A stretch of 61,087 nt of DNA, from NCBI GenBank assembly GCA_018221205.1, contig JAAOYF010000027.1:1-61087 (forward strand), written 5' to 3'. A program made the position numbers and the translations under genes. This DNA is from Candidatus Woesearchaeota archaeon. Its GTDB lineage: Archaea; Nanobdellota; Nanobdellia; Woesearchaeales; WJIZ01. Below are positions 7,343-44,501 of the stretch, piece after piece. The notes under the pieces were generated by a model. It did not search any database. It had not been told where the DNA came from and saw nothing but the letters and a program-made list of their open reading frames with translations. Position 1 is the stretch's first letter, and every line of letters starts with the position of its first letter.

Positions 7343-9145
7343 ATGCTTATTAACCATTCTTTCCAAGATAAAAGTATCCAGAAGGATGTTCCAGATGCAG
7401 GATTTCTCTTGACGAACAAGAAAGGAGGCTTTGCCAATTTCGGTGTCAATACGAAGTATAGGGGAGTGTTCTTTCGACTCCGGGATGAAGTATACAAAAT
7501 CATCGATGACATACGGATCAAAGGGCAGATATCAGAGATCCATAACGGTTTTTGGCATGTCAGCAGGAAGAGAGGAGATAATACAGAAAAGTTTTTCATG
7601 CCTCATGGAATGGATTGCTTTGTCTATGAACTCGAGAATGAGTCGACGGTTGATGTTCTTTTCGATGTCAAGAAAGCATATGATTCACGGGTGTGGGGAA
7701 GAAATTATCGTGTCTGGCAGGAAGACGATGCACTCTTTGTCGAGTTCAAGAAGTTCACTGATAAGAGAGAAGATGATAGCGAAGGGGAGATGGAATTCCA
7801 ATTCACCATCGCTATCCTCGGAAAATTTTCTGATGTCGAGATCCTTGACAGATGGGAACATATGCTCTATACTGCTGATGCTCAGCGGCATAGTGGACCC
7901 TATGATCGGCACGTCTATAATGGTTTCAAAGCAAGAGCGAAGCAGCTGTTCTTCTCTTTCGGAGAGACAAAAGAGGATGCACTGAAAAATTGCCAGCATA
8001 TCAAAAAGAAGCTCTCACATTATCGATCGCTCCAGGAGAAGTATTCTGGCCTGATGTTCAAGAAGGCAAAAGATGATAAGACTCAATTAGCATTGAAGGC
8101 AGCTACTGAAGCATTGGACAGCCTGCTTGTCCATGATGATATCTATGCAGGACTGCCCTGGTTCTTTCAGTTCTGGGGACGAGACACCTTCATCAGCCTG
8201 AAAGCGCTTATGCTCGATAATGAATTCTCAATGGCTAAGAAAGTGTTGCTGAAATATCTTGAGCATATCGAGGAAGATGGCCTGGTGCCGAACAGGGTTC
8301 CACCGAGCGGGATACAATCAATAGATGCCTCAGGATGGTTCTTTACACGATGGCAGAACTTCTTCACCCTCTTAGGAGAGGAGAAGACGATCCAGCATTA
8401 TTTCAGCAAGGGAGAAGTAGAACTGGTCATCACCAGGCTCAAAAGCAGCATGAATCAGATCTTCAAGAATTATACAGTAGACAGCCTTGCCGTCAACAAT
8501 GCCCAAGAGACGTGGATGGATACAAACATCGGAGATGGACGAGCAGGAAAAAGGATAGAGATCCAAGCATTGCGATTCAGGTTGTACACTTTTCTCGCCC
8601 ACCATAGCGACAAAAATTTTTTCGATGATTTAGCAGCACGATTGAAAACAAAGATCAAGGAGGTGTTTTGGACAGGAACATACCTTAAGGATGGGGCAGA
8701 TGATCCTACCATCCGTCCGAACATCTTTATTGCTGCTTACCTTGCTCCTGAACTTCTTTCGAAAGAAGAATGGATAGCGTGTTTTGATCATATCCTGCCG
8801 AAGCTCTGGCTCGATTGGGGCGGCTTGTCGACGATAGATAAGGAGGATCCTCGTTTCAGAGAGAGGAGCACCGGGGAGAATCCTGAAAGCTATCACCATG
8901 GAGATTCTTGGTATTGGATCAACAATCTGGCAGCACTTGTTCTCACACGCCTGGATTATGTCCGCTATCAGCATACTATCGAGAAGATCGTCGAGGCGAG
9001 CTGTGAAGATATCTTATTCAAAGGATATGTAGGTTGTCATTCAGAGATAAGCTCTGCTGTTGAACAGAAAGCAGAAGGCTGCTTGAATCAGGCATGGAGC
9101 AACGCTTTCTTCATCGAACTCATCGAAGAATTAAATAAGCGGTGA
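7343..9145 (+). CDS. Glycogen debranching enzyme (amylo-alpha-1,6-glucosidase family)
   Basis: 600-aa ORF with GLPWFFQFWGRDTFISL, YHHGDSWYW and NQAWSNA motifs characteristic of the archaeal/bacterial GDE_C domain. Confidence 0.8.
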   Translation: MLINHSFQDKSIQKDVPDAGFLLTNKKGGFANFGVNTKYRGVFFRLRDEVYKIIDDIRIKGQISEIHNGFWHVSRKRGDNTEKFFMPHGMDCFVYELENESTVDVLFDVKKAYDSRVWGRNYRVWQEDDALFVEFKKFTDKREDDSEGEMEFQFTIAILGKFSDVEILDRWEHMLYTADAQRHSGPYDRHVYNGFKARAKQLFFSFGETKEDALKNCQHIKKKLSHYRSLQEKYSGLMFKKAKDDKTQLALKAATEALDSLLVHDDIYAGLPWFFQFWGRDTFISLKALMLDNEFSMAKKVLLKYLEHIEEDGLVPNRVPPSGIQSIDASGWFFTRWQNFFTLLGEEKTIQHYFSKGEVELVITRLKSSMNQIFKNYTVDSLAVNNAQETWMDTNIGDGRAGKRIEIQALRFRLYTFLAHHSDKNFFDDLAARLKTKIKEVFWTGTYLKDGADDPTIRPNIFIAAYLAPELLSKEEWIACFDHILPKLWLDWGGLSTIDKEDPRFRERSTGENPESYHHGDSWYWINNLAALVLTRLDYVRYQHTIEKIVEASCEDILFKGYVGCHSEISSAVEQKAEGCLNQAWSNAFFIELIEELNKR

Positions 9146-34097: not shown

Positions 34098-35515
34098 TGG
34101 TTATCGGAGAAGCAATAGGTTCGACTGATGTAGCTATCATAGGTGGTGGACCAGGCGGCTATACTGCTGCTATCAAATGTGCCCAAGAAGGAAAGAAAGT
34201 TACTGTTGTTGATAGGGAGAGTGTCGGTGGCATATGCTTGCATCATGGCTGTATCCCTACGAAAGCGTTGATCCATGCTGCTGATATGGTGCAGGAAAGC
34301 AAGAAGGCAGCTGAGTATGGTGTTTCTTTTTCTGGAATTTCAGTTGATTTCAAGAAGACACAAGAATGGAAACGAAATATCATCAAGAAATTAGATAATG
34401 GTGTCCGAGGATTGTTCAAGCATTATGGCATCACGCTGCTGAAAGCAGAGGCTTTTTTTGAGGAATCAAATAAATTATCATTACATCCTCTTGATGAGAA
34501 TGAACATTTGGAGATCAATGCTCTTGAATTCAAGAAATGCATCATCGCTACTGGTTCTAGAGAGAGAATGATCCCTGGCATTGAAGTAGATGGAGAGTCT
34601 ATCCTTACTTCAACACATGCAATTGAATTAGAAACACTTCCTGAATCTGTTCTCGTCATCGGTGGAGGCTATATCGGCATTGAATTGAGCCAGATGATGG
34701 CTAAATTAGGAGTGAAAGTCACGATCGTCGAGGCTTTGCCTCGTATCTTAAATCTCTTGGATGAGGAATTCAGCTCTATAGTGCAAAAGAATGTCGAAGC
34801 ATTCGGCGGAACAGTGTTTGCTAGTGCGAAAGTAGAAAAGGTTGAGAAAAAAGATGGAAAAGTAAGCACGACTTTCAATAAAGACGGCAAATCACAGACT
34901 GTTGTCACTGATAAAGTCATTGTTGCTATAGGCAGAGTACCTAATGCTGAGCAATTACATCTTGATACTACTAAAGTTCAGCTTGATGAACATGGTTTCA
35001 TCAAGATAGATAAGAAGATGCAGACAACTGATCCCCGCATCTTTGCTATCGGTGATGTAGCTGGTGGAGCGATGCTGGCACATAAGGCAGCGTTTGAAGC
35101 AAAGATAGCTGCAGAAGTCATTGCTGGCAAGAGCAGTGCGTTTGATAATCTTGTTCCTTTTGCTATCTTCTCAGATCCTGAGATTGCAGGAGTAGGGTTG
35201 AATGAAACTCAGGCCAAAGAGCAGGGGTTAAGCTATAAGGTGAAAAAATTCAACTCATCTACTTCGGGAAAAAGCCAGATCATGGGGGATAAAGGATCGT
35301 TCTTCAAAGTGATTTATGAGGAGAATGGGACTATTCATGGTCTGCATATCTGTGGAGCGAGAGCTTCGGATATGATTGGAGAGGCTGTTTTAGCTATGGA
35401 GATGGGAGCTACTATAGAGGATCTTTCTTTGATCATCCATCCGCATCCTACACTTGTTGAAGGATATGGAGAATTAGCTGATCTGGCACTTGGAAAGCCG
35501 ACGAATTCTCTGTGA
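34097..35515 (+). CDS. lpdA: Dihydrolipoamide dehydrogenase (E3)
   Basis: 472-aa ORF with GGGPGGYTAAI, the redox disulfide GGICLHHGCIPTK and the C-terminal HPHPTL motif. Confidence 0.9.
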   Translation: MVIGEAIGSTDVAIIGGGPGGYTAAIKCAQEGKKVTVVDRESVGGICLHHGCIPTKALIHAADMVQESKKAAEYGVSFSGISVDFKKTQEWKRNIIKKLDNGVRGLFKHYGITLLKAEAFFEESNKLSLHPLDENEHLEINALEFKKCIIATGSRERMIPGIEVDGESILTSTHAIELETLPESVLVIGGGYIGIELSQMMAKLGVKVTIVEALPRILNLLDEEFSSIVQKNVEAFGGTVFASAKVEKVEKKDGKVSTTFNKDGKSQTVVTDKVIVAIGRVPNAEQLHLDTTKVQLDEHGFIKIDKKMQTTDPRIFAIGDVAGGAMLAHKAAFEAKIAAEVIAGKSSAFDNLVPFAIFSDPEIAGVGLNETQAKEQGLSYKVKKFNSSTSGKSQIMGDKGSFFKVIYEENGTIHGLHICGARASDMIGEAVLAMEMGATIEDLSLIIHPHPTLVEGYGELADLALGKPTNSL

Positions 35516-35652
35516 TTTTAGACTTATTCAAAAAACCCGTGGATTAGCATTTCCGCTCTCTCTAAGCTTCTTGAATAATCTGCCCATTGTATAGAAGTAA
35601 TTTATACGCTTTTCAAACAGGTGCATTTTTTGGGATAAAAAAGAGGTGAAAG

Positions 35653-35766
35653 TTATCCCGGACTAATGTCCAATTTCTTCTCTAATTCAGCAATAGCCAG
35701 TGTTGTCTTGATAATGGTGTCGGGGTTGAGGGACATGGTCTGGATGCCGCATTGGACAACGACAAG
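35653..35766 (-). pseudogene. Diverged duplicate of the last ~36 codons of ppsA (orphan 3' fragment)
   Basis: Hand translation gives LVVVQCGIQTMSLNPDTIIKTTLAIAELEKKLDISPG then a stop. The ppsA C-terminus reads EFVVQCGIGSMSLNPDTVIKTTLSVAKLEQKLGISPE then a stop. An in-frame TAG lies immediately upstream. Many synonymous differences occur at the nucleotide level. Confidence 0.8.
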
Positions 35767-36716
35767 CTAGAAACGAGATCATTCAGTTTTGCCTGCCGAT
35801 CCTTGTGAGCTCCAAAACCAATGAGATTGGCATATGTTCTGAGGTTTTCCTTGCCGCCGATATAGAGGCTTTCCATACGATATCTTGTGGTTCTTTTATG
35901 ATGCGTGTATGATATATTCAAGAAATTTAGCAGTTTCTTTACGAAATTGATTTCATCAGGATTCTTCATCTCCAGACGGACATATCTTGTTTTATTGTTG
36001 TATACTGTACCTTCTCCAGCCATAAGACCACGGAGATACGCGGCTGCACGTTGCGGATCATTCAAAGCAGCAGTTTTTACATAGTCTCTGAGAGCAAGGA
36101 AAAGATCGATGACAACAGCATTGTCGACACAAACTCTATATTTGGGGATTTTATTGTATTGTTGATATGAGATTCTTGTGTCATGAAACCGTTCATAGCT
36201 TCCCATGTAACCGATTGGCAAAATAACGTTTATGTAATAAGGAAGATCCGGAATGAATTTCCTGAGCCATCTAATATAAAACCTTATTACATCGATATTT
36301 GAATTAGTGAATCGGAGCTTTCTGGCTTTTTTAGTACCAGAATCTCCTGTGTCACCTTCAGCAATATAAAGACCATAACCTTCGACGAATAATTCTGTTA
36401 GTTTGATTTGTTTCGGTAAAGAAATCGGTTTGTTATGGCTTCCCCATGAATAGTAGCCGGTGATTTCGTCATAAACCTTATGTTTGTCTACACCAAGAAC
36501 CGAAGCAATTTTCAATAGCCTGATGAGATTATGGCCATAGTTCTTCTTGAAAGGCCAATTAAAGGTTTGGCTGTCGATTTTGATATATTGTTGATTGAAT
36601 TCTTCAATAGAGCCGGATTTAGAATTGATTTTAAATTTTAGTTTTTCAATAAAGCTACTGTTGACTGATACGAAAACCTTCTCGAGATTTGAAAGCAGGG
36701 CAGCTGTCTTATACAT
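35682..36716 (-). CDS. LAGLIDADG homing endonuclease (double-motif, free-standing)
   Basis: 344-aa ORF with two LAGLIDADG-type motifs (LFVEGYGLYIAEGDTG and AAYLRGLMAGEGTVY). Its last ~28 codons read through the ppsA 3' fragment in a different frame. Confidence 0.75.
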   Translation of the reverse strand: MYKTAALLSNLEKVFVSVNSSFIEKLKFKINSKSGSIEEFNQQYIKIDSQTFNWPFKKNYGHNLIRLLKIASVLGVDKHKVYDEITGYYSWGSHNKPISLPKQIKLTELFVEGYGLYIAEGDTGDSGTKKARKLRFTNSNIDVIRFYIRWLRKFIPDLPYYINVILPIGYMGSYERFHDTRISYQQYNKIPKYRVCVDNAVVIDLFLALRDYVKTAALNDPQRAAAYLRGLMAGEGTVYNNKTRYVRLEMKNPDEINFVKKLLNFLNISYTHHKRTTRYRMESLYIGGKENLRTYANLIGFGAHKDRQAKLNDLVSSLSLSNAASRPCPSTPTPLSRQHWLLLN

Positions 36717-36853
36717 ATGAAATCACCAAGCCCCCTAAGTAAAGCTCGCTTAAATGATTTCAGCAACTTGCGAAATCATAATTTACGAGCTGAACACTAG
36801 TTTGGGAGATTTCATATAAGATAAACTTTGCCCTCTAAAATCCGGAAGGTTTC

Positions 36854-39271
36854 CTATTCCGGAGAGATGCCGAGTTTTTGTTCGAGTTTTGCGACGGAGA
36901 GCGTCGTCTTGATCACAGTATCTGGATTGAGGCTCATGGAGCCGATACCACATTGTACCACGAATTCTGCAAATTCGACGTAATCTGAGACAGATTGGCC
37001 GCAAATTCCGATGTATTTTCCTTTTTTGTTGCAGACTTCGATGACTTGTTTGACCAATTTCTTCACTGCGTCGTTCCTTTCGTCATAGACATGGGCAACC
37101 AATTCTGAATCTCTATCTACTCCTAATGTCAATTGAGTGAGATCGTTTGTTCCGATTGAAAAGCCGTCTACTACTTCCAAGAATTCTTCTGCTAAGATGA
37201 CATTTGAAGGAATCTCGCACATGCCGATGACCTTTAATCCGTTCTCTCCTCGTCTCAAGCCGAATTCTGCCATGGTCTCAATGACTTTCTTCGTCTCTTC
37301 GACAGTCCGGGGGAAAGGAATCATCACTTCTACATTCGTCAGACCCATCTCATTGCGTACTTTTAGGAAAGCCCTGCATTCCAAGCTGAATGCTTCCTTA
37401 TACTTATCAGAATAATAACGGGAAGCTCCACGCCAACCTATCATGGGGTTGTCTTCTTTAGGCTCAAATTGCTTGCCGCCTATCAGATTAGCATATTCGT
37501 TGGACTTAAAATCAGATAATCTGACAATGACCTTCTTCGGATAGAAAGCTGCGGCGATCATGCCTATTCCTTCAGCCAATTTATCGACGAAGTACTGGCC
37601 TTTGTCCTGCCAATTGAAGGTTGCGTCAGCAATTATCTTTTTCACTTCTTCATCCTGGACTTCATTGAATCTTAAAAGAGCGAGTGGGTGGATCCTGATG
37701 TAGGAATTGATGACAAATTCCTCTCTAGCCAAACCTACTCCTTCATTAGGGATGAAACTTTGCTCAAACGCTTGATCGGGAGCGGCAAGATTCATCATGA
37801 TCTTTGTCTTAGTCTTTGGGATAGAGCCTAGATCTGTCTCTTTCTTCTGGAATTTCAATAATCCTTTGTATACATAGCCGACTGCGCCTTGAGAGCAATC
37901 AATAGTCACATCTTCTCCTGAATGGACAGCTTCTGTTGCGTTCTGTGTTCCCACGACGCATGGAATACCTAACTCACGAGAGATGATGGCAGCATGGCAA
38001 GTCCTTCCGCCCCTGTTTGTCACGATCGCACCAGCTATCTTCATGATAGGTTCCCAATCTGGGTCAGTCATATCAGTTATGAGCACTTCTCCTTTCTTGA
38101 ACTGATTGATCTGATGCGTATCTTTGATGACATGGGCTTTTCCCTGGCCGATCTTCTCACCGACGGATTTTCCTTCAATAATGATTTCTCCCTTCTCTTC
38201 AAGGAGGTATTCTACCAGCTTGCTCATATCTTTTTGCGAATGGACAGTCTCAGGACGGGCCTGAACAATGAACAATTCATTTGTCACGCCGTCTTTTGCC
38301 CATTCCATATCCATAGGAGTGAATTTCCCTCTTTTTTCTGAGTAATGATCTTCAATGGTACAGGCCATCTTAGCCAATGCTAAAATCTCATCATCATTTA
38401 TGACGAATTTTTTCCTTTCTTCATCAGGAACATCGATATTTTTCGTAGGATGCTTATGGTCCATGGTATAGACCATCTTAATCTTCTTCTCACCAACACT
38501 TTTCTTGATTATTGGCCTGAAATTCTGTTTTAATGTGGGCTTGAAAATATAATATTCATCTGGATTTACAGCGCCTTGCACAACATTCTCTCCTAGTCCA
38601 TATGCCCCTGTGAGAAATACTGCATCTTTGAAGCCGGATTCAGTATCAATGGAGAACATGACTCCTGAAGATGCTATGTCAGAACGGACCATCTTCTGCA
38701 CGCCGATCGAAAGTGCGATAGAGAAATGATCGAAGTTCTTATCTTCTCTATAGGAGATGGCTCGGTTGGTGAATAAGGAAGCAAAGCACCTTTTACATGC
38801 GTCAATGATCATATCAGGGCCTTTGATATTCAAATAAGTCTCTTGTTGGCCTGCGAAGCTTGCGTCTGGCAAGTCTTCTGCAGTGGCAGAACTTCTTACA
38901 GCGCAATCGGTATTGTTCCCATACTCCTTGCACATATTTCCATATGCTTCGACGATCACATCCTTCAATTCAGGAGGGAATTCAAGATTCCTGATCAACT
39001 CCCTTACTTTTTGTCCGTGAGCTGCAAGATTATCCATATTACTGGTATCAAGATCTTTCAGGATGTCTTTTATCTTGTCTCTTGTCCCTGTTTTTTCTAA
39101 TAAATATCTATATGCATAGGCTGTCACGGCAAAACCATTCGGTATCTTGACTCCTTTCGGACTTAGATTACGGTACATCTCTCCTAGGGATGCGTTCTTG
39201 CCGCCCACCAACGGAACATCTTCAATGCCTAATTGATCAAACCATAAAATAAATTGATCTGCTTTGTTCAT
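36854..39271 (-). CDS. ppsA: Phosphoenolpyruvate synthase (pyruvate, water dikinase)
   Basis: 805-aa ORF with an ATP-grasp N-domain, a phospho-His swivel domain (GGRTCHAAIISRELGIPCVVG) and a PEP-utilising C-terminal TIM domain. Confidence 0.9.
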   Translation of the reverse strand: MNKADQFILWFDQLGIEDVPLVGGKNASLGEMYRNLSPKGVKIPNGFAVTAYAYRYLLEKTGTRDKIKDILKDLDTSNMDNLAAHGQKVRELIRNLEFPPELKDVIVEAYGNMCKEYGNNTDCAVRSSATAEDLPDASFAGQQETYLNIKGPDMIIDACKRCFASLFTNRAISYREDKNFDHFSIALSIGVQKMVRSDIASSGVMFSIDTESGFKDAVFLTGAYGLGENVVQGAVNPDEYYIFKPTLKQNFRPIIKKSVGEKKIKMVYTMDHKHPTKNIDVPDEERKKFVINDDEILALAKMACTIEDHYSEKRGKFTPMDMEWAKDGVTNELFIVQARPETVHSQKDMSKLVEYLLEEKGEIIIEGKSVGEKIGQGKAHVIKDTHQINQFKKGEVLITDMTDPDWEPIMKIAGAIVTNRGGRTCHAAIISRELGIPCVVGTQNATEAVHSGEDVTIDCSQGAVGYVYKGLLKFQKKETDLGSIPKTKTKIMMNLAAPDQAFEQSFIPNEGVGLAREEFVINSYIRIHPLALLRFNEVQDEEVKKIIADATFNWQDKGQYFVDKLAEGIGMIAAAFYPKKVIVRLSDFKSNEYANLIGGKQFEPKEDNPMIGWRGASRYYSDKYKEAFSLECRAFLKVRNEMGLTNVEVMIPFPRTVEETKKVIETMAEFGLRRGENGLKVIGMCEIPSNVILAEEFLEVVDGFSIGTNDLTQLTLGVDRDSELVAHVYDERNDAVKKLVKQVIEVCNKKGKYIGICGQSVSDYVEFAEFVVQCGIGSMSLNPDTVIKTTLSVAKLEQKLGISPE

Positions 39272-41064
39272 TTACCAAACACCTTCTGCACTGCTAAATT
39301 ATGTGCCTCTATGTAATTTTTTATCAAGATGCTCCAGTCTGCGCACGATGCCAATGATTTTGCTACTGTCTTGTTCTGGACCCTCTCTTTTCTATTCAAC
39401 ATCGAGTATTTGTAGAGGATATCAGCGAAATCCTGCACAACCTGATCATCTTTCTTCTTCATCCTTTTCAGGATGAAAATACCTTCTTTCTTCTTTGCAT
39501 GTTTTGAGATGAATCTGCCAAATCCAGCTAAGTCAGTCGTCACTGAAGGAATGGCCAAAGCAGCAGCTTCTAGCGGAGTGTAGCCCCAGGGTTCATAATA
39601 ACTGGGGAAGACACCCAAATGGGCGCCAGCGATCGTATCGTAATAGCTGAGATTGATCATCTCATCTGCACCGTCAAGGTAGACAGGATAGATTATCGCT
39701 TTCACCTTATCTTCTTCCCTATTCTGGAGGCCGTTGTTCTTGAGTTCAGTGATCATCGTATCTTTATCGTCCATATAGTGGGTGGAGAGAGGAGGATTTC
39801 CCTGGCGCTTAAAGTGCAAGACATCTTTTCTCAGGTGCTCAAAGAATTCTTCTGAGAAAATCATGTTCAAGGAAAGCTTTTTCCTGCTTACGATAGCAGA
39901 AACAGTCTTGTTGATGATATTATCTGAATTATAATCGACAAAATTCTTGATGTGGCGGAAATAGTTCTTGTTTTCCAATACTTGAGTATTCAAGCCGCCA
40001 TGGCCTGCAGGAATCCAGAAAAAGACAGAGATAGTCCTCTTCGTTTTTTCTTTTTTCAGGCGATCATTTAGCTTTCCTAATGCTTTGATGAAGATATCAA
40101 GGCCTTTATTGCGGAATTCATATCTTCCTAGGATGAAGAATATCAGATTGTGCTCTAATTCTATCGGATAGTAGGGGAAGAAGTAATAGGTGAGGAATTC
40201 CCTGATCCTTTCTCTTACTGTCAGGTGTTTGATAGATGTCTCTTCGATTGTCGGGAACTTTCCGATATCTAATCCATTCAAGACCAAGACATCTGCTTTT
40301 CTTCCTAAGAGCTTTTCTGCCTCAATCGCAGTTATTTCTGAAACTGTTGTGAAAACATCAGTTGTCTGGGCGCAGGACTTCTCTGTCAAATACTTTGTCT
40401 CGATCTTTAATCTATAGGCCTCTTCCTGTGGATTGACCTGCGCTAATTTCTCATAAAGAGGAAAGTTATTGCCAGCTAAAGCTCTTCCAAGCATGGTCGC
40501 ATGAGTAGTAAAGACTGTTCCAATCTTAACCTTGTTCTTTTTGAGGAACAATAGAGCATAGCCAGCAAGCCATTCATGGCAGTGCATGGTTGATTTCAAA
40601 GAAGGATATTTTTCAACTATCTTCTGGATAACTCTGGATGCAGCATAACTCCAGATAAGGGGCTCTTCGACATCCCATTGGGCATTCATCGAATCAATCT
40701 TATAATCTTCCCATAATTTTGCTTTCAGCTCATCCTTCTTCTCTTTGAGCTTTGAGCAATCGATCAAAATGGCATAGGGCTCACCCTTCACTTTCCATTT
40801 GCCGAAATGACAGAAAATCTGTTCATCAGCCACTTCTTTAAAAGCTTCTGCAATCTCAGGAGGAGGAGTCTCTTGGGTGAACTCAAACTTTGTCTTGCCC
40901 TCAAAGTAAGGGCCTATGAGATAATAGTGCTTGAAATGCTGCTTCATCAAAGCAGCCTTGGACATGACGACTGTATAGATGCCGCCTACTTTATTGCATA
41001 CTTCCCAGGATAGCTCAAATAGAAGGTCACTCTTGGCTTTCACTCTTTTACCTCTTTTTTTCAT
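39268..41064 (-). CDS. Glycogen synthase, eukaryote-type (GT3 family)
   Basis: 598-aa ORF. The N-terminal LFELSWEVCNKVGGIYTVVMSKA closely matches the GT3 glycogen synthase signature (FE..WEV.NKVGGIYTV). Confidence 0.75.
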   Translation of the reverse strand: MKKRGKRVKAKSDLLFELSWEVCNKVGGIYTVVMSKAALMKQHFKHYYLIGPYFEGKTKFEFTQETPPPEIAEAFKEVADEQIFCHFGKWKVKGEPYAILIDCSKLKEKKDELKAKLWEDYKIDSMNAQWDVEEPLIWSYAASRVIQKIVEKYPSLKSTMHCHEWLAGYALLFLKKNKVKIGTVFTTHATMLGRALAGNNFPLYEKLAQVNPQEEAYRLKIETKYLTEKSCAQTTDVFTTVSEITAIEAEKLLGRKADVLVLNGLDIGKFPTIEETSIKHLTVRERIREFLTYYFFPYYPIELEHNLIFFILGRYEFRNKGLDIFIKALGKLNDRLKKEKTKRTISVFFWIPAGHGGLNTQVLENKNYFRHIKNFVDYNSDNIINKTVSAIVSRKKLSLNMIFSEEFFEHLRKDVLHFKRQGNPPLSTHYMDDKDTMITELKNNGLQNREEDKVKAIIYPVYLDGADEMINLSYYDTIAGAHLGVFPSYYEPWGYTPLEAAALAIPSVTTDLAGFGRFISKHAKKKEGIFILKRMKKKDDQVVQDFADILYKYSMLNRKERVQNKTVAKSLASCADWSILIKNYIEAHNLAVQKVFGK

Positions 41065-41096
41065 CTTTAAGGAAAGGGCATTATTTATATCTTTCC

Positions 41097-41702
41097 TTAA
41101 TCATAGACATATATATGTGAATCAGGCCAATCAGTCTTGATTTTTCCAGCCCTCATATTCCTTTTGGGAAGGTAGTTCCTGGCAATCCTCAAGGTGTCTG
41201 AAATCGGTATGGTTATGGTCTCTTTTACACAACCATGGCCAAAATGGGCATGTAATTCGTTTATCAATTCAGCATTATAGATCTCAATCAAGTCCTCTCT
41301 CTTATGGCTTTCAATAACCATTATCAAAGCGATATTTCCCATGTACTCACCAATCTGGGTAGAAACTAAATGCTTTGGAAAGAATCTGGCAGCTTTCTCA
41401 GATTGCTCAAACCGCTCCAGGACAGCTTTTCTGGTTATACCTTCTTTCAGCATAATGATGAACATGCTTCGGCCAGTGAAGGTACCTGTACCCTTTGGCG
41501 TGTTGTTCAGATAGCAGAAATAGTTGATGAGGTTGTTTTCTTCAAGCAGTTTCCTTTTTCGATTTGTGGTCTTAAGTGGCACATTTGTTCTTATCGCAAT
41601 CTGGTTGTCAGAGATTCTTGGGTCTCTGATGAGTTCCCGGACGATTAGTTTTTCTTGTTCATCAAGTTGGTACATAATATCTATTCCCCCTATTCTTGAC
41701 AT
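41097..41702 (-). CDS. Lrp/AsnC-like HTH transcriptional regulator
   Basis: 201-aa ORF. The N-terminal LIVRELIRDPRISDNQIAIRTNVPLKTTNRKRKLLEE resembles the Lrp/AsnC wHTH domain. The C-terminal domain is uncharacterised. Confidence 0.45.
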   Translation of the reverse strand: MSRIGGIDIMYQLDEQEKLIVRELIRDPRISDNQIAIRTNVPLKTTNRKRKLLEENNLINYFCYLNNTPKGTGTFTGRSMFIIMLKEGITRKAVLERFEQSEKAARFFPKHLVSTQIGEYMGNIALIMVIESHKREDLIEIYNAELINELHAHFGHGCVKETITIPISDTLRIARNYLPKRNMRAGKIKTDWPDSHIYVYD

Positions 41703-41869
41703 GAGTATGTCAATATACTAGTTATACAACTATATATATGTTTCTTTTTTCATGATAGGGTTGTTGTCATTAGAAAGTAACGAGAAACCTTTTTTAATAG
41801 ATTTACCATAGGAGTACTTTAAGATAGATGGTATGCTATCATTGACATGATTGTGTAAAAAGGGAGAGC

Positions 41870-43075
41870 ATGAGAGTATTGATGTTTGGGTGGGAATTTC
41901 CGCCAATGAGTTCTGGAGGTTTGGGTACGGCTTGCTATGGACTCACCAAAGGATTGAGCCAGCACGGTATTGGAGTTACCTTTGTCATGCCTTATGTCTC
42001 TGAAGGTGTAGATGCTGAATTTGTCAAGCTGTTGCCTGCCAATACAGCCCAGAAGATTAAGATGGTTGGTGTGGATAGCCCTCTTCATGCTTATATCACC
42101 TCAAGCGAATATCAGGAATTTCTGCTGACCTATAAGAAAACGGGTAAGCAGAACAAGCTCTATGGGCATAATCTGTTTGAGGAAGTGTATAGATTTTCTA
42201 TGAAAGCTGCGCTCATAGCTCAGCATGAGCAGTTTGATGTCATTCACTGCCATGATTGGATGACCTATGAGGCAGGCATCAGAGCACGGGAAGCCTCTGG
42301 AAAGCCTATGGTGATCCATGTCCATGCCACTGATTTTGACCGTACTGGTGGAAATGTCAATCAATTGGTGTATGACATCGAAAAAAGAGGGATGCATGCT
42401 GCTGATATGATCATCGCAGTTTCGCAATTCACCAAGAACAAGATTGTTGAGCATTATGGCATCAATCCTGATAAAGTCACGGTTGTACACAATGCGGTGA
42501 CGCAGGAGGAGAAACCTCGTTTCCATATCAATAAACATGATAAGATTGTGCTGTTTTTGGGAAGGATAACCCTGCAGAAAGGTCCGGACTACTTCATCGA
42601 AGCAGCGCGAAAGTGCCTTGAATTCGACCCAAACATCAGATTCGTCATTGCTGGAACAGGGGATATGGAAGGCCAGATTATACAAAGGGCAGCAGAATAC
42701 GGCATCGGCGACAAAGTCCTTTTTGCCGGATTTGTCAAGGATGAAGATCTTGATAGGATGTACCAGCTGGCAGATGTGTATGTGATGCCTTCTGTCTCAG
42801 AACCTTTTGGCATCACTCCTCTGGAAGCGATGAAAAATGGCACACCCTGCATCATCTCGAAACAGAGTGGAGTCTCGGAAGTCATCACCCATTGCCTTAA
42901 AGTTGATTTTTGGGACATCAATCAGCTTGTCGATAAGATTCTCAGTGTATTGAAACATGAGGAATTACATCATGCTCTCAAGGAACACGGTGCTCTAGAG
43001 ATCAAGAATTTCACCTGGCGGGAGCCAGCAGGGAAATGCGTTGACGTTTATAAAAAAGCGATAGCAGGGGGCTAA
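41870..43075 (+). CDS. GT4/GT5 glycosyltransferase, archaeal glycogen-synthase-like
   Basis: 401-aa ORF. The N-terminal MRVLMFGWEFPPMSSGGLGTACYGL and the E-x7-E motif EPFGITPLEAM fit GT-B retaining transferases. The glycogen gene context supports the assignment. Confidence 0.65.
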   Translation: MRVLMFGWEFPPMSSGGLGTACYGLTKGLSQHGIGVTFVMPYVSEGVDAEFVKLLPANTAQKIKMVGVDSPLHAYITSSEYQEFLLTYKKTGKQNKLYGHNLFEEVYRFSMKAALIAQHEQFDVIHCHDWMTYEAGIRAREASGKPMVIHVHATDFDRTGGNVNQLVYDIEKRGMHAADMIIAVSQFTKNKIVEHYGINPDKVTVVHNAVTQEEKPRFHINKHDKIVLFLGRITLQKGPDYFIEAARKCLEFDPNIRFVIAGTGDMEGQIIQRAAEYGIGDKVLFAGFVKDEDLDRMYQLADVYVMPSVSEPFGITPLEAMKNGTPCIISKQSGVSEVITHCLKVDFWDINQLVDKILSVLKHEELHHALKEHGALEIKNFTWREPAGKCVDVYKKAIAGG

Positions 43076-43078
43076 GAA

Positions 43079-43328
43079 ATGGTAAGTGTATGCTTGAGGT
43101 CTTTCAAAGACCTCGGAGAAGAGCACAAGGAGGAACTCCTCAAAAATCGGAGTTCCCCAAGGCAAAGAGGGACAACAACATGGTAAGTGTATGCTTTGAG
43201 ATTTTTGCAAAAAATCTCGTAAAAAGCGTGGGTTTCGCTTTTGTAGGCAAAGCCTACAAACCTTTGAGCATAGCTCAAAGTTCGCTCAAGCCCACGATTA
43301 GGGGGATAACATGGTAAGTGTATGCTTT
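43079..43328. repeat. Elements B1/B2: triplicated start-codon segment ATGGTAAGTGTATGCTT separated by 84-nt and 114-nt hairpin inserts
   Basis: Copies lie at 43079..43095, 43180..43196 and 43311..43327; the third is the GH57 start. B1 contains the hairpin GAGGTCTTT-C-AAAGACCTC. B2 contains GAGATTTTT-GCA-AAAAATCTC, GTAGGC-AAA-GCCTAC and CTTTGAGC-ATA-GCTCAAAG, all nested inside CGTGGG...CCCACG. Confidence 0.9.
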
Positions 43329-44501
43329 TATTTTCAAGTGCATCAGCCGTACAGAATCAGAAATTATTCAGTCTTTGATATCGGCAATAACAATCAGTAT
43401 TGGTTTAATGATAAAAATAAACAGATCATGGAGAAGGTCGCGAAGAAATGCTATATTCCTACCAATAAAGTCTTCCTGAATCATCTGCGGAATAATCCAG
43501 AGTTCAAGATCAGCTATTCTTTTTCAGGGGTTGTCCTTGACCAATTTGAGGAGTATGCTCCTGATGTCCTTCGGAGCTTCCAAGATCTTGTCGATACTGG
43601 CCAGGTCGAGGTGCTTGATGAAACTTATTACCACAGCCTGGCTTATCTCTATTCAAAAGATGAGTTCAAAGCACAGGTAAAACTTCATAATAAGAAGGTG
43701 AAGGACCTCTTCGGCTACAGCCCGTCTGTCTTCAGAAACACAGAACTGGTCTATAACAATGAACTTGCTAAATTTGTTGAAGATATGGGCTATAAAGGAA
43801 TCCTGGCAGAAGGTGCAGACCACATCCTCGGATGGAGAAGCCCTAATTTCCTCTATCGACCTGTGACGTGCAATAATATCAAGCTGCTGCTGAAGAATTA
43901 TAAGCTCTCAGATGACATCGCATTCAGATTCTCGAACAAAGGATGGAATGAGCATCCATTGACTGCACCAAAATTTGCAAAATGGGTGAACCAGACAAAC
44001 GGGAACGGGAACGTCGTCAACCTGTTCATGGATTACGAGACTTTCGGCGAGCACCAATGGGAAGACACCGGCATATTCAAGTTTCTAGAAGCGATGCCCC
44101 ATGAACTGCTCAAGCACCCAGACAATAAGTTCATCACGCCGAGCGAAGCTGTCAAGAGCTTCGAGCCTGTAAGTGACCTAGACATCCATAACATCATCTC
44201 ATGGGCAGACATCGAACGAGATCTGAGCGCATGGCTCGGCAACAGCATGCAGCAATCAGCAGCAACAAAGATCTACCAAATCGAGAAAAGAGTAAAGGAA
44301 CTGAACGATCCGAAGCTATTGGAAGACTGGCGAAAATTGCAGACGAGCGACCATTTCTATTATATGTGCACGAAGTGGTTTGCAGACGGTGATGTGCATC
44401 GGTATTTCAATCCCTATGAAAGCCCTTATGACGGCTTCATCGCATTCATGAACATCCTGAATGATATGCACAAAAGAATAGCACCACCAATTCCAGCATA
44501 A
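43311..44501 (+). CDS. Glycoside hydrolase family 57 protein
   Basis: 396-aa ORF. The N-terminal FYFQVHQPYRIR and MDYETFGEHQWE segments are typical of GH57 alpha-glucan-active enzymes. Confidence 0.75.
   Translation: MVSVCFYFQVHQPYRIRNYSVFDIGNNNQYWFNDKNKQIMEKVAKKCYIPTNKVFLNHLRNNPEFKISYSFSGVVLDQFEEYAPDVLRSFQDLVDTGQVEVLDETYYHSLAYLYSKDEFKAQVKLHNKKVKDLFGYSPSVFRNTELVYNNELAKFVEDMGYKGILAEGADHILGWRSPNFLYRPVTCNNIKLLLKNYKLSDDIAFRFSNKGWNEHPLTAPKFAKWVNQTNGNGNVVNLFMDYETFGEHQWEDTGIFKFLEAMPHELLKHPDNKFITPSEAVKSFEPVSDLDIHNIISWADIERDLSAWLGNSMQQSAATKIYQIEKRVKELNDPKLLEDWRKLQTSDHFYYMCTKWFADGDVHRYFNPYESPYDGFIAFMNILNDMHKRIAPPIPA

What the first reader, a model, noticed from the sequence alone, without database searches (positions are those of the whole stretch)
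35653..36961. Free-standing LAGLIDADG homing-endonuclease cassette after ppsA, with a diverged orphan copy of the ppsA 3' end on its far side
ppsA ends normally at 36854 (...VVQCGIGSMSLNPDTVIKTTLSVAKLEQKLGISPE-stop). A structured spacer of 137 nt follows, containing GCTCG...CGAGC around ATGATTTC...GAAATCAT. Then comes a 344-aa double-motif LAGLIDADG ORF. Immediately beyond it, in another frame, lies a second copy of the final ~36 ppsA codons (VVVQCGIQTMSLNPDTIIKTTLAIAELEKKLDISPG-stop, 35653-35766). This copy is about three quarters identical in protein but differs at many synonymous positions, and it is cut off upstream by an in-frame TAG. The endonuclease ORF runs 28 codons into this fragment out of frame. 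The simplest reading is that a mobile HEG cassette invaded the 3' end of ppsA. It would have carried its own recoded, presumably cleavage-resistant, replacement for the gene's C-terminus and displaced the resident 3' end. This architecture is known from organellar and phage free-standing HEGs. I am not aware of it being described for archaeal ppsA. It is not an intein, because there is no in-frame fusion and a stop and spacer intervene.
Basis: partly seen in the sequence, partly recalled or inferred. Interest (0 to 1): 0.7.

Follow-up and report, generated by a model that had tools for sequence, protein, structure and literature searches.

The report
Homing-endonuclease cassette replacing ppsA's 3' end
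A selfish DNA-cutting-enzyme gene sits just after the archaeal ppsA gene, carries its own replacement for the gene's last ~45 codons, and has pushed the old gene end aside as a dead fragment; about 45 related metagenomic loci show the same arrangement.

Summary
ppsA (36854-39271, minus strand) ends normally. A 137-nt spacer follows, then an intact 344-aa double-motif LAGLIDADG ORF (35682-36716). Its last 28 codons run out of frame into an orphan copy of the last 36 ppsA codons (35653-35766). The copies match at 26/36 aa and 70/108 nt, and synonymous sites are saturated.

The arrangement is not a one-off. Every homolog of the ORF with enough flank (about 45 loci) sits at the 3' end of a ppsA gene, in changing neighbourhoods. 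A few sit in inverted orientation. At least 14 distinct loci keep an orphan ppsA tail beyond the endonuclease gene.

Only 1 of 80 species-level ppsA loci carries the gene. The window's closest relatives (84-85% aa, one syntenic upstream) lack it.

Alleles with the gene are altered in a short window (GQAPSDFPEF) just 5' of the duplication. Pro761 is present in 76/76 empty alleles and 4/13 occupied ones, which suggests a target-immunity change.

The ORF folds like I-DmoI and is under purifying selection.

Best reading: a free-standing homing endonuclease that invades ppsA by replacing its 3' end. This architecture is known from fungal mitochondria. I found no description of it for archaeal chromosomes.

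The parts
36854..39271 (-). ppsA (phosphoenolpyruvate synthase), 805 aa, complete. It is the host and target gene.
   Evidence: ORF. Pfam PPDK_N, PEP-utilizers and PEP-utilizers_C. It is 84-85% identical to Woesearchaeota/Nanoarchaeota MAG proteins.
36971..36997 (-). Codons Q759-F767 (CAA TCT GTC TCA GAT TAC GTC GAA TTT = QSVSDYVEF). This is the variant form of the conserved GQAPSD(F/Y)PEF window, 2 codons after the GICGQ cysteine. Inferred to be a cleavage-immune version of the endonuclease target.
   Evidence: Pro761 is present in 76/76 HEG-free alleles and in 4/13 HEG-bearing alleles. Codon table. Motif tables. Window vs L128/L129 aa identity drops from 96-98% (701-756) to 77% (757-769).
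36854..36964 (-). Copy A: the working last 36 codons plus stop of ppsA (FVVQCGIGSMSLNPDTVIKTTLSVAKLEQKLGISPE*). Inferred to have arrived with the cassette.
   Evidence: It is 70-81% aa identical to the tails of the four relatives compared codon by codon, against 81-88% for the orphan.
36717..36853 (-). 137-nt spacer between the ppsA stop and the endonuclease start. It holds a long imperfect hairpin (36744-36790) and a GGTGAT Shine-Dalgarno-like site (36722-36727). The predicted outer stem pairs with the SD/start region.
   Evidence: dG -37.5, z -2.75. (with ATG: dG -40.9, z -3.8). (hairpin unique in the window). (no Rfam match). The regulatory role is inferred only.
35682..36716 (-). Free-standing monomeric double-motif LAGLIDADG homing-endonuclease gene, 344 aa. 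Motif 1 is at 36345-36389 and motif 2 at 36000-36041. The conserved protein ends near residue 317-320.
   Evidence: Pfam. Family alignment with invariant E120/G121 and E235/G236. AlphaFold pLDDT 90, pTM 0.86. Foldseek best hit I-DmoI, E 5.9e-7, TM 0.66. Family dN/dS 0.12-0.19.
35682..35766 (-). The last ~28 codons of the endonuclease ORF, read out of frame through the orphan (…SSLSLSNAASRPCPSTPTPLSRQHWLLLN*). An accidental, disordered extension.
   Evidence: pLDDT is below 50 for residues 325-344. This stretch is not conserved in the family alignment.
35653..35769 (-). Copy B: orphan, promoterless copy of the last 36-37 ppsA codons plus stop, cut off upstream by an in-frame TAG. Inferred to be the displaced resident 3' end and the downstream homology arm for homing.
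   Evidence: z 30. 27/30 aa to the HEG-free relative L012 against 21/30 for copy A. It carries odd replacements at conserved positions (F770V, G801D).

Best explanation
This is a selfish, free-standing LAGLIDADG homing-endonuclease element that lives at the 3' end of ppsA.

What the element is. It consists of a variant copy of the last ~45 codons of ppsA, a spacer and the endonuclease gene.

Proposed mechanism.
1. The enzyme cuts endonuclease-free ppsA alleles in the conserved DNA that encodes GQAPSD(F/Y)PEF. This lies two codons after the GICGQ cysteine and just 5' of where the orphan begins.
2. The break is repaired from an occupied allele. The ppsA body serves as the upstream homology arm. 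The recipient's own 3' end, pairing with the donor's orphan, serves as the downstream arm.
3. The recipient ends up with a donor-type gene end that no longer has the target (here QSVSDYVEF), then the endonuclease gene, then its own old 3' end as a non-coding relic that decays.
4. ppsA stays intact, so no intron or intein is needed.

Shown: the anatomy; the family-wide linkage to the ppsA 3' end; recurrent orphans; patchy distribution; the Pro761/target-window association; the I-DmoI-like fold; intact catalytic motifs; purifying selection.

Inferred: nuclease activity; the exact target; the direction of import; present-day mobility.
For: Anatomy in the window.

Linkage to ppsA.
- All 7 homologs looked up by exact protein lie directly after ppsA, with different downstream genes.
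- Of 32 further metagenomic loci, every one with enough flank has ppsA adjacent.
- In most the gene is on the same strand, with a spacer of -29 to +242 nt.
- In L120-L122 it is tail-to-tail with ppsA, and the fragmentary L119 hit points the same way. Position is therefore conserved while orientation is not.

Orphan tails.
- They score z > 5 against shuffles in 14 distinct loci, plus L120.
- They are fused in frame to the endonuclease C-terminus in L001, L098, L105 and L106.
- They lie just after its stop in L099, L104 and L109.
- They are decayed in L002, L005 and L097.

Patchiness.
- Only L023 among 80 GTDB-species ppsA loci has a copy, and it is broken.
- The nearest relatives, L128 (85%) and L129 (84%), are empty and carry QAPSD. 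L129 shares the upstream GH57, glycosyltransferase and glycogen synthase genes with the window.

Target window.
- Pro761 is present in 76/76 empty alleles and 4/13 occupied ones.
- The changes cluster in Q759-F767.
- Of three SVSD alleles found blind among the 119 closest proteins, one (L127) has the endonuclease gene downstream. The base rate is about 1 in 80.

The two copies.
- They diverged under purifying selection (pN 0.22, pS 0.78).
- The orphan matches the tails of relatives at about body level (81-88%). Copy A is lower (70-81%).

The enzyme.
- Both LAGLIDADG motifs keep their acidic residue in all 17 aligned members.
- Model pLDDT is 90 and the best structural match is I-DmoI.
- dN/dS is 0.12-0.19.

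Non-vertical signals.
- L002 and L003 have ppsA 91% identical but endonucleases only 55% identical.
- L094 and L103 have endonuclease neighbours from other ppsA clades.

A cassette-specific spacer motif, CACTGGACA, occurs in 14/30 occupied and 3/80 empty loci.
Against: - No cleavage or homing has been shown.
- Synonymous sites are saturated even against the nearest relatives (third-position identity about 0.42). The imported tract cannot be mapped at DNA level.
- Against the five closest protein relatives, copies A and B score about equally.
- Copy A is not clearly closer to the A copies of other occupied loci.
- L011 has an intact endonuclease gene yet a canonical QAPSD. Two SVSD alleles (L124/L125, L126) have neither endonuclease gene nor orphan. 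The Pro761 link is therefore strong but not absolute.
- Endonuclease and ppsA distances correlate (r = 0.68), so much of the inheritance looks vertical.
- The window's spacer lacks the CACTGGACA motif.
Confidence: 0.75

Rival explanations
1. Domesticated or resident LAGLIDADG protein. An ancient one-off insertion after ppsA is now inherited vertically. The protein is kept for a host function such as regulating ppsA (WhiA-like DNA binding), not for homing. The orphan is a fossil.
For: Endonuclease and ppsA distances correlate, r = 0.68. Purifying selection is strong, dN/dS 0.12-0.19. In one subfamily the start codon overlaps the ppsA stop, which looks operon-like (spacers -4 to -29). WhiA is among the structural matches. 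Distant relatives carry a C-terminal winged-helix-like extension.
Against: Only 1 of 80 species-level ppsA loci has it, and the nearest relatives at 84-85% lack it. Both catalytic acidic residues are invariant. Orphans at very different stages of decay, including nearly intact ones, argue for repeated and recent events. The orientation is inverted in some lineages. The Pro761/target-window changes have no obvious place in a regulator model. L002 and L003 share 91% ppsA identity but only 55% endonuclease identity.
Confidence: 0.15
2. A plain local tandem duplication of the ppsA 3' end. An unrelated endonuclease gene later landed inside it, or the duplication arose by replication slippage.
For: Two direct copies of one gene end flank the inserted ORF.
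Against: The same arrangement recurs in at least 14 independent loci of different ppsA clades, always with this endonuclease family. No relative has the fragment without the endonuclease gene. The copies are saturated at synonymous sites yet 72% identical in protein. They therefore diverged as working genes, not as a fresh duplicate plus a decaying copy.
Confidence: 0.04
3. A degenerate intein or an intron-borne endonuclease whose splicing element has decayed, or an assembly artefact joining two pps genes.
For: Some relatives' ppsA genes do carry a true intein with a LAGLIDADG_3 domain at another site. The orphan is fused in frame to the endonuclease C-terminus in four loci.
Against: ppsA has its own stop and a 137-nt spacer. 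There is no Intein_splicing/Hint hit. The N-terminal 100 residues are helical, not Hint-like. No Rfam intron family matches even at E <= 1. The same structure appears in assemblies from NCBI, JGI, ENA and Logan. The window has no second pps gene.
Confidence: 0.03

Closest known systems
Free-standing HEGs of fungal mitochondria with partial 3'/C-terminal duplication of the neighbouring gene. Examples: cob and atp6 in Endoconidiophora resinifera (PMC6279837); atp6 and cox1 pseudogenes next to free LAGLIDADG genes (PMC7487136). From memory, not re-read here: the Allomyces macrogynus atp6/ORF360 case of Paquin, Laforest & Lang, PNAS 1994.
   Same: The host gene is complete. The endonuclease ORF lies directly after it. 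A partial duplicate of the gene's 3' end lies beyond the ORF. The gene stays functional without an intron or intein.
   Different: The host here is an archaeal (DPANN-type) chromosome and a central-metabolism gene, not an organelle. The endonuclease is a distinct ~330-aa family with an extra N-terminal helical domain. One family keeps to one target across about 45 loci. A recurrent amino-acid change marks the presumed target. Inverted-orientation and in-frame-fused forms occur.
Intronless homing by free-standing phage endonucleases (T4 Seg and Mob enzymes; F-CphI next to psbA, PMC6083498). A review statement says free-standing HEGs are generally limited to intergenic sites (PMC13619312).
   Same: The endonuclease gene has its own start and stop and sits beside the gene it targets. 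Spread is by break repair, with co-conversion of flanking markers.
   Different: Phage cases use GIY-YIG, HNH or Endo VII enzymes and insert between genes without duplicating a gene end. Here the insertion point lies inside the coding region and is made harmless by a replacement 3' end.
I-DmoI and other archaeal monomeric LAGLIDADG enzymes (intron-encoded), and the PI-PfuI/PI-SceI intein endonuclease domains.
   Same: Double LAGLIDADG fold. The best Foldseek hit is I-DmoI (E 5.9e-7, TM 0.66). Pfam LAGLIDADG_3 matches. There is one acidic residue per motif.
   Different: Sequence identity is only 14-17%. The gene is not inside an rRNA intron or an intein. It carries an additional ~100-residue N-terminal domain.
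'Fractured genes': a free-standing HEG between two halves of a gene that carry split inteins (PMC2677866).
   Same: A prokaryotic free-standing HEG is lodged within a conserved host gene without killing it.
   Different: There the gene is split and rejoined by trans protein splicing. Here the gene is kept whole by a duplicated, recoded end and no splicing is involved.

Membership tests
LAGLIDADG homing endonuclease (monomeric, two-motif) | Two LAGLIDADG-type helices, each ending in an acidic residue followed by Gly | tested here: met
   GYGLYIAEG (E120, G121) and LRGLMAGEG (E235, G236). Both are invariant in 17 family members.
LAGLIDADG homing endonuclease (monomeric, two-motif) | Profile match above the curated threshold | tested here: met
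   Pfam LAGLIDADG_3, 49.7 bits against a cut-off of 22.5, E 4.5e-13. The hit covers only the second domain (residues 225-300).
LAGLIDADG homing endonuclease (monomeric, two-motif) | Pseudo-dimeric alpha-beta-beta-alpha-beta-beta-alpha fold | tested here: met
   AlphaFold model pLDDT 90, pTM 0.86. The top 8 Foldseek hits are I-DmoI chains (best E 5.9e-7, TM 0.66). WhiA, PI-SceI, PI-PfuI and I-Tsp061I follow among the top 50.
LAGLIDADG homing endonuclease (monomeric, two-motif) | Site-specific cleavage of a long (about 20 bp) DNA target | not testable with these tools
   Needs purified protein and substrates.
Free-standing homing endonuclease gene (mobile element) | Own start and stop; not inside an intron or intein | tested here: met
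   ppsA stop, 137-nt spacer, ATG with a GGTGAT site upstream. No Rfam match. No Hint domain.
Free-standing homing endonuclease gene (mobile element) | Constant association with one target gene while other neighbours change | tested here: met
   About 45 loci, all at the ppsA 3' end. Downstream genes differ and both orientations occur.
Free-standing homing endonuclease gene (mobile element) | Patchy presence and absence among close relatives (empty sites exist) | tested here: met
   1 of 80 species-level loci. L128 and L129, at 84-85% aa, are empty.
Free-standing homing endonuclease gene (mobile element) | The occupied allele lacks an intact target (immunity) | tested here: inconclusive
   Pro761 is present in 76/76 empty and 4/13 occupied alleles. 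Exceptions are L011 (occupied, canonical) and L124-L126 (variant, empty). The target itself is only inferred.
Free-standing homing endonuclease gene (mobile element) | Demonstrated transfer into an empty allele (homing) | not testable with these tools
   Indirect evidence only: endonuclease/ppsA incongruences.
Mitochondrial-type 'HEG plus duplicated host-gene 3' end' architecture | Complete host gene, then the HEG, then a partial duplicate of the host 3' end | tested here: met
   Window and at least 14 related loci.
Mitochondrial-type 'HEG plus duplicated host-gene 3' end' architecture | The working copy is foreign and the downstream copy is the displaced resident | tested here: inconclusive
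   The orphan is 81-88% and copy A 70-81% identical to relatives' tails. Against the five closest proteins the two score about equally. DNA-level mapping is impossible because synonymous sites are saturated.
Intein | In-frame insertion in the host protein with Hint splicing blocks | tested here: not met
   A stop codon and a spacer intervene. There is no Intein_splicing hit. The N-terminal domain is helical.
Group I/II or archaeal intron carrying a HEG | Intron RNA structure around the ORF; exons rejoined by splicing | tested here: not met
   No Rfam family matches at E <= 1 in 35000-37600. ppsA is complete upstream, so no splicing is needed.

The most novel reading that the evidence does not exclude
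An active homing system circulates among DPANN-type archaea and uses 'gene-end replacement' instead of an intron or intein. The endonuclease cuts the DNA that encodes the active-site-proximal GQAPSDFPEF stretch of ppsA. It spreads together with an immune, amino-acid-altered replacement of the last ~45 codons, and the host's old gene end serves as the downstream recombination arm. If so, this would be, as far as I could find, the first such system on a prokaryotic chromosome. It would also be direct evidence for recurrent DNA exchange and homologous recombination between these episymbiotic archaea.
Probability: 0.45. Interest if true: 0.72.

Novelty: new variant of a known kind. Interest (0 to 1): 0.6.

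Why it matters
Homing endonucleases that enter conserved coding sequence are thought to need an intron or intein to spare the host gene. Free-standing ones are said to be largely confined to intergenic sites (PMC13619312).

This family shows a third solution outside organelles: replacing the gene's end. It operates in archaeal chromosomes, on a central-metabolism gene, right next to an active-site motif.

The roughly 45 natural loci form a ready-made series.
- Empty, occupied and variant alleles give predicted sensitive and immune target pairs.
- Orphans at all stages of decay give a clock for the invasion-decay-loss cycle.
- The enzymes are compact, confidently modelled and diverse (40-80% identical), so they could serve as new LAGLIDADG scaffolds for genome engineering.

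If the element is still moving, it is also a marker of gene flow among DPANN archaea.

Tried and rejected
1. Intron or other structured-RNA explanation. Rfam at E <= 1 over 35000-37600 found nothing, and the whole window at gathering scores also found nothing.

2. Spacer hairpin as a repeated element (MITE-like). It is unique in the window. Spacers of related loci are not homologous to it, although some have their own strong hairpins.

3. Mapping the imported tract at DNA level against L012, L128 and L129. This failed because third-position identity is about 0.4 everywhere.

4. Showing that copy A groups with the A copies of the nearest endonuclease relatives (L002, L003). The result was inconclusive, with about equal numbers of differences to L012 and to L002.

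5. An empty-site alignment with L012. Its downstream region is not syntenic. L129 shares only the upstream synteny.

6. My idea that the conserved endonuclease C-terminus ...KKLRVNQYV* is a fossil of the ppsA ISVNPDV stretch. I rejected it because in L099, L104 and L109 an orphan lies at or just after that stop, and in L104 and L109 it still includes the (F)FLV..GI segment upstream of that stretch.

7. A blind prediction that SVSD alleles carry the endonuclease gene. Only 1 of 3 did. That is an enrichment, not a rule.

8. A general N-to-S/T change in SLNPD of copy A. It is seen in 9 of 12 orphan-bearing loci but not in the window, and I did not control for phylogeny, so I do not rely on it.

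Full report
**1. The observation**

- ppsA runs 39271 to 36854 on the minus strand. It is 805 aa with the three expected Pfam domains and ends ...KLEQKLGISPE-stop.
- A 137-nt spacer follows (36717-36853). It contains an imperfect 47-nt hairpin at 36744-36790. The spacer's RNA fold has z = -2.75 against shuffles, and the hairpin occurs once in the window.
- An ORF of 344 aa follows (36716 to 35682). It has a GGTGAT site 5 nt before its ATG.
- Its last 85 nt overlap, in another frame, a second copy of the last 36 ppsA codons plus stop (35766 to 35653). In its own frame that copy is preceded by TAG.
- The two copies share 26/36 residues and 70/108 bases. Differences by codon position are 12, 5 and 21. 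pS is 0.78 (saturated) and pN is 0.22.
- The match is far above chance (z = 30 against shuffled tails; E 3e-11).
- The window holds no other pps or endonuclease sequence.

**2. What the ORF is**

- Pfam gives LAGLIDADG_3 (E 4.5e-13).
- A search of 5.8 billion proteins found only 18 relatives, at 36-53% identity.
- Their alignment shows two LAGLIDADG-type helices. Each ends in an invariant Glu-Gly: YIAEG at 117-121 and MAGEG at 232-236.
- An AlphaFold model built on that alignment is confident (pLDDT 90, pTM 0.86). The exception is residues 325-344, the stretch read out of frame through the orphan.
- Foldseek against the PDB puts I-DmoI first (E 5.9e-7, TM 0.66). WhiA, PI-SceI, PI-PfuI and I-Tsp061I follow.
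- About 100 N-terminal residues form an extra helical domain.
- An exhaustive profile search finds 48 cluster representatives at E <= 1e-30 and 135 at E <= 1e-10. Among the 150 listed, all are of free-standing size and none is intein-sized.
- Close pairs of family members give dN/dS of 0.12-0.19, so the protein is maintained by selection.

**3. The family is tied to the ppsA 3' end**

- All seven homologs I located by exact protein lie directly after a ppsA gene on the same strand. Their downstream neighbours are unrelated to one another.
- A pattern scan of metagenome contigs gave 32 more loci. In every one with enough flank, ppsA is adjacent.
- Most are on the same strand, with spacers from -29 nt (overlapping genes) to +242 nt.
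- L120-L122 are tail-to-tail with ppsA, and the fragmentary L119 hit points the same way. In L120 and L121 the endonuclease gene overlaps the ppsA stop.
- Position is therefore conserved while orientation and neighbours are not. That is the expected pattern for an element defined by its target.

**4. Orphan tails recur**

- I aligned each locus's own ppsA tail to the DNA around the endonuclease 3' end. This finds a second tail, at z > 5 against shuffles, in 14 distinct loci.
- A weaker one lies beyond the inverted gene in L120.
- The tails span every stage of decay.
  - Fused in frame to the endonuclease C-terminus: L001/L118, L098, L105, L106.
  - Starting within a few bases of its stop: L099, L104, L109.
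  - Out of frame: the window.
  - Carrying a stop: L107.
  - Reduced to scraps: L002, L005, L097.
- Their 5' boundary always falls at ppsA residues about 764-771, (D)FAEF(L/V)V.
- In every pair the two copies differ heavily at synonymous sites.

**5. Patchy distribution and empty sites**

- Among the 80 best ppsA loci from one-genome-per-species GTDB contigs, only L023 has a homolog, and that copy is frameshifted.
- The source names attached to the best ppsA hits are Woesearchaeota, Nanoarchaeota or Nanobdellota MAGs. The window is therefore most likely from a DPANN archaeon. This is an inference from one gene.
- The closest proteins (84-85% identity) come from L128 and L129. Both are followed directly by other genes, with no endonuclease and no orphan.
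- L129 shares the upstream GH57, glycosyltransferase and glycogen synthase genes with the window.

**6. A candidate target and immunity change**

I compared ppsA alleles at least 60% identical to the window, column by column.

- Only one position that is invariant in empty alleles is changed in occupied ones. Pro761 is present in 76/76 empty alleles and in 4/13 occupied ones.
- The occupied alleles read Q(S/A/C)VSD, Q(S/G)ASD or (D/E)APS(T/S) instead of Q(A/G)PSD.
- Further changes occur at P765 and F767.
- The altered window spans about 9 codons, Q759-F767. It begins two codons after the GICGQ cysteine. By homology with enzyme I and PPDK I take this cysteine to be the catalytic one. That rests on my own knowledge. 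The PDB PEP synthases show the same motif.
- The window ends exactly where the orphans begin.
- In the window the sequence is CAA TCT GTC TCA GAT TAC GTC GAA TTT. The empty-allele consensus is CAG GCN CCN AGN GAT TTT CCN GAN TTT.
- Against its nearest relatives, the window's ppsA drops from 96-98% aa identity (residues 701-756) to 77% (757-769) and 75-81% (tail A). The orphan scores 81%.
- Against L012, the orphan matches 27/30 residues and copy A 21/30.

Blind test. Three of the 119 closest proteins carry SVSD.
- One of them (L127) has the endonuclease gene downstream.
- Two (L124/L125, L126) do not, and they have no orphan.
- Conversely, L011 is occupied but canonical.

The association is strong but not absolute. 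The variant-but-empty alleles may be former hosts or naturally immune alleles.

**7. Mechanism proposed**

The enzyme cuts empty alleles in or next to the GQAPSDFPEF codons. Repair then copies from an occupied allele.

- Upstream, the ppsA body provides homology.
- Downstream, the only homology shared between unrelated genomes is the remainder of ppsA itself. The donor's orphan supplies it.
- The product necessarily has a donor-derived gene end (copy A with the altered target), the spacer, the endonuclease gene, and a resident or hybrid orphan.

This logic explains four things.
- Why copy A must be foreign at the moment of invasion.
- Why the orphan lacks the left half of the target.
- Why strongly diverged A/B pairs persist. 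Similar direct repeats would recombine and delete the element.
- Why orphans decay once the element is fixed.

Steps shown: the anatomy, linkage, recurrence, patchiness, allele association, fold and selection. Steps inferred: cleavage, the exact site, the direction of import and current mobility.

**8. Vertical or horizontal inheritance**

- Endonuclease and ppsA distances correlate (r = 0.68), so lineages mostly stay within ppsA clades.
- There are clear departures. L002 and L003 share 91% ppsA identity but only 55% endonuclease identity. Other pairs with 87-93% ppsA identity have 65-83%. L094 and L103 have endonuclease neighbours from other ppsA clades.
- Together with the empty sites in close relatives, this fits a gain, decay and loss cycle better than a single ancient gain. 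I could not run a formal reconciliation.

**9. Rivals**

- A domesticated DNA-binding protein serving ppsA is the only serious rival (about 0.15). It explains the purifying selection and the overlapping start/stop codons of one subfamily. It does not explain the patchiness, the invariant catalytic residues, the fresh orphans, the inverted copies or the Pro761 pattern.
- A plain local duplication is excluded by the recurrence and by the saturated synonymous divergence.
- An intein or intron is excluded by the stop codon and spacer, the lack of Hint or intron signatures, and the completeness of ppsA.
- Misassembly is excluded by independent assemblies from four sources.

**10. Comparison with what is known**

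- The architecture matches free-standing HEGs of fungal mitochondria that sit between a gene and a partial C-terminal duplicate of it. Examples are cob and atp6 in Endoconidiophora resinifera (PMC6279837) and atp6 and cox1 pseudogenes next to free LAGLIDADG genes (PMC7487136). From memory, the Allomyces atp6 case also fits.
- Full-text searches for phosphoenolpyruvate synthase with LAGLIDADG, LAGLIDADG with DPANN, and free-standing LAGLIDADG in archaea returned nothing that describes this. That library is incomplete.
- A recent paper states that free-standing HEGs are generally limited to intergenic sites (PMC13619312).
- I therefore rate this a new variant of a known kind. The trick is the same. 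The host domain, the enzyme family and the target are new, and the natural series is unusually informative.

**11. Verdict**

Interest is 0.6. The finding would be stronger with a cleavage assay. It is weaker than it first looks in one respect, because the kind is already known from organelles.

Noticed in passing
L001/L118, L105, L116, L120, L122, L126; proteins P0030, P0037, P0052, P0058, P0072: Many relatives' ppsA genes carry a true intein (Intein_splicing plus LAGLIDADG_3, proteins of about 1200 aa) at a different site, in the PEP-utilizers mobile domain. L001/L118, L105, L116, L120 and L122 carry both the intein and the 3' endonuclease gene, so one gene hosts two independent homing elements. 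The L105 intein's endonuclease domain aligns to this family at 25% identity.
   Followed up: partly
window 36854-39271; proteins P0094, P0118, P0120, P0126; loci L013-L015: The window's ppsA is about 75% identical to ppsA of Desulfomicrobium and other Desulfovibrionales. That is about as close as it is to many DPANN archaeal copies. This suggests inter-domain transfer of ppsA between these archaea and sulfate reducers.
   Followed up: no
L001, L002, L003, L005, L006, L008, L011, L023, L097, L100, L104, L107, L113, L127: 2-39 nt after the ppsA stop: A conserved CACTGGACA(T) motif lies in the spacer of 14/30 occupied loci against 3/80 empty loci (Fisher p = 3e-7). It is sometimes doubled (L002, L008, L107) or forms a perfect palindrome (L113: CACTGGACATCAATGTCCAGTG). 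It is absent from the window's spacer. Its function is unknown. It could be a protein-binding or processing site that belongs to the cassette.
   Followed up: partly
L100, L104, L107: spacers between ppsA and the endonuclease gene: These three loci share a long, strongly structured spacer hairpin (AAAAAGAGAACACGCAAAACT...CGCTTAACGTTCTCTTTTT; z -3.3 to -6.1). It is unrelated in sequence to the window's hairpin. Structured spacers may be a recurrent but non-homologous feature of these cassettes.
   Followed up: no
proteins P0167, P0173, P0176, P0178, P0181, P0182, P0186, P0188 and about 25 more: More distant members of the endonuclease family (390-490 aa) carry a C-terminal extension of about 70-90 residues that looks like a winged helix-turn-helix (for example ...TVKELMEKTNKSKTQVRRVLNRLIKKKRIKRLKSGRSYIYKP). 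I did not examine their genomic context or target gene.
   Followed up: no
L124/L125 (P0036) and L126 (P0052): These ppsA alleles have the 'immune-type' QSVSD motif but no endonuclease gene and no orphan. A convergent gene abuts or overlaps the ppsA stop. They may be former hosts that lost the element, or naturally resistant alleles.
   Followed up: partly
window 39268-44501 and 7343-9145: A glycogen/starch metabolism cluster lies next to ppsA: a glycogen-synthase-like ORF of 598 aa, a GT4/GT5 glycosyltransferase, a GH57 enzyme and, further away, an amylo-alpha-1,6-glucosidase. The ppsA-proximal part is syntenic with the Woesearchaeota MAG contig L129. On the other side lie the E2 and E3 (lipoamide dehydrogenase) genes of a 2-oxoacid dehydrogenase complex, convergent with the cassette.
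   Followed up: partly
window 1-61087: No tRNA gene (ARAGORN) and no Rfam family at gathering threshold was found in the whole 61-kb window.
   Followed up: no
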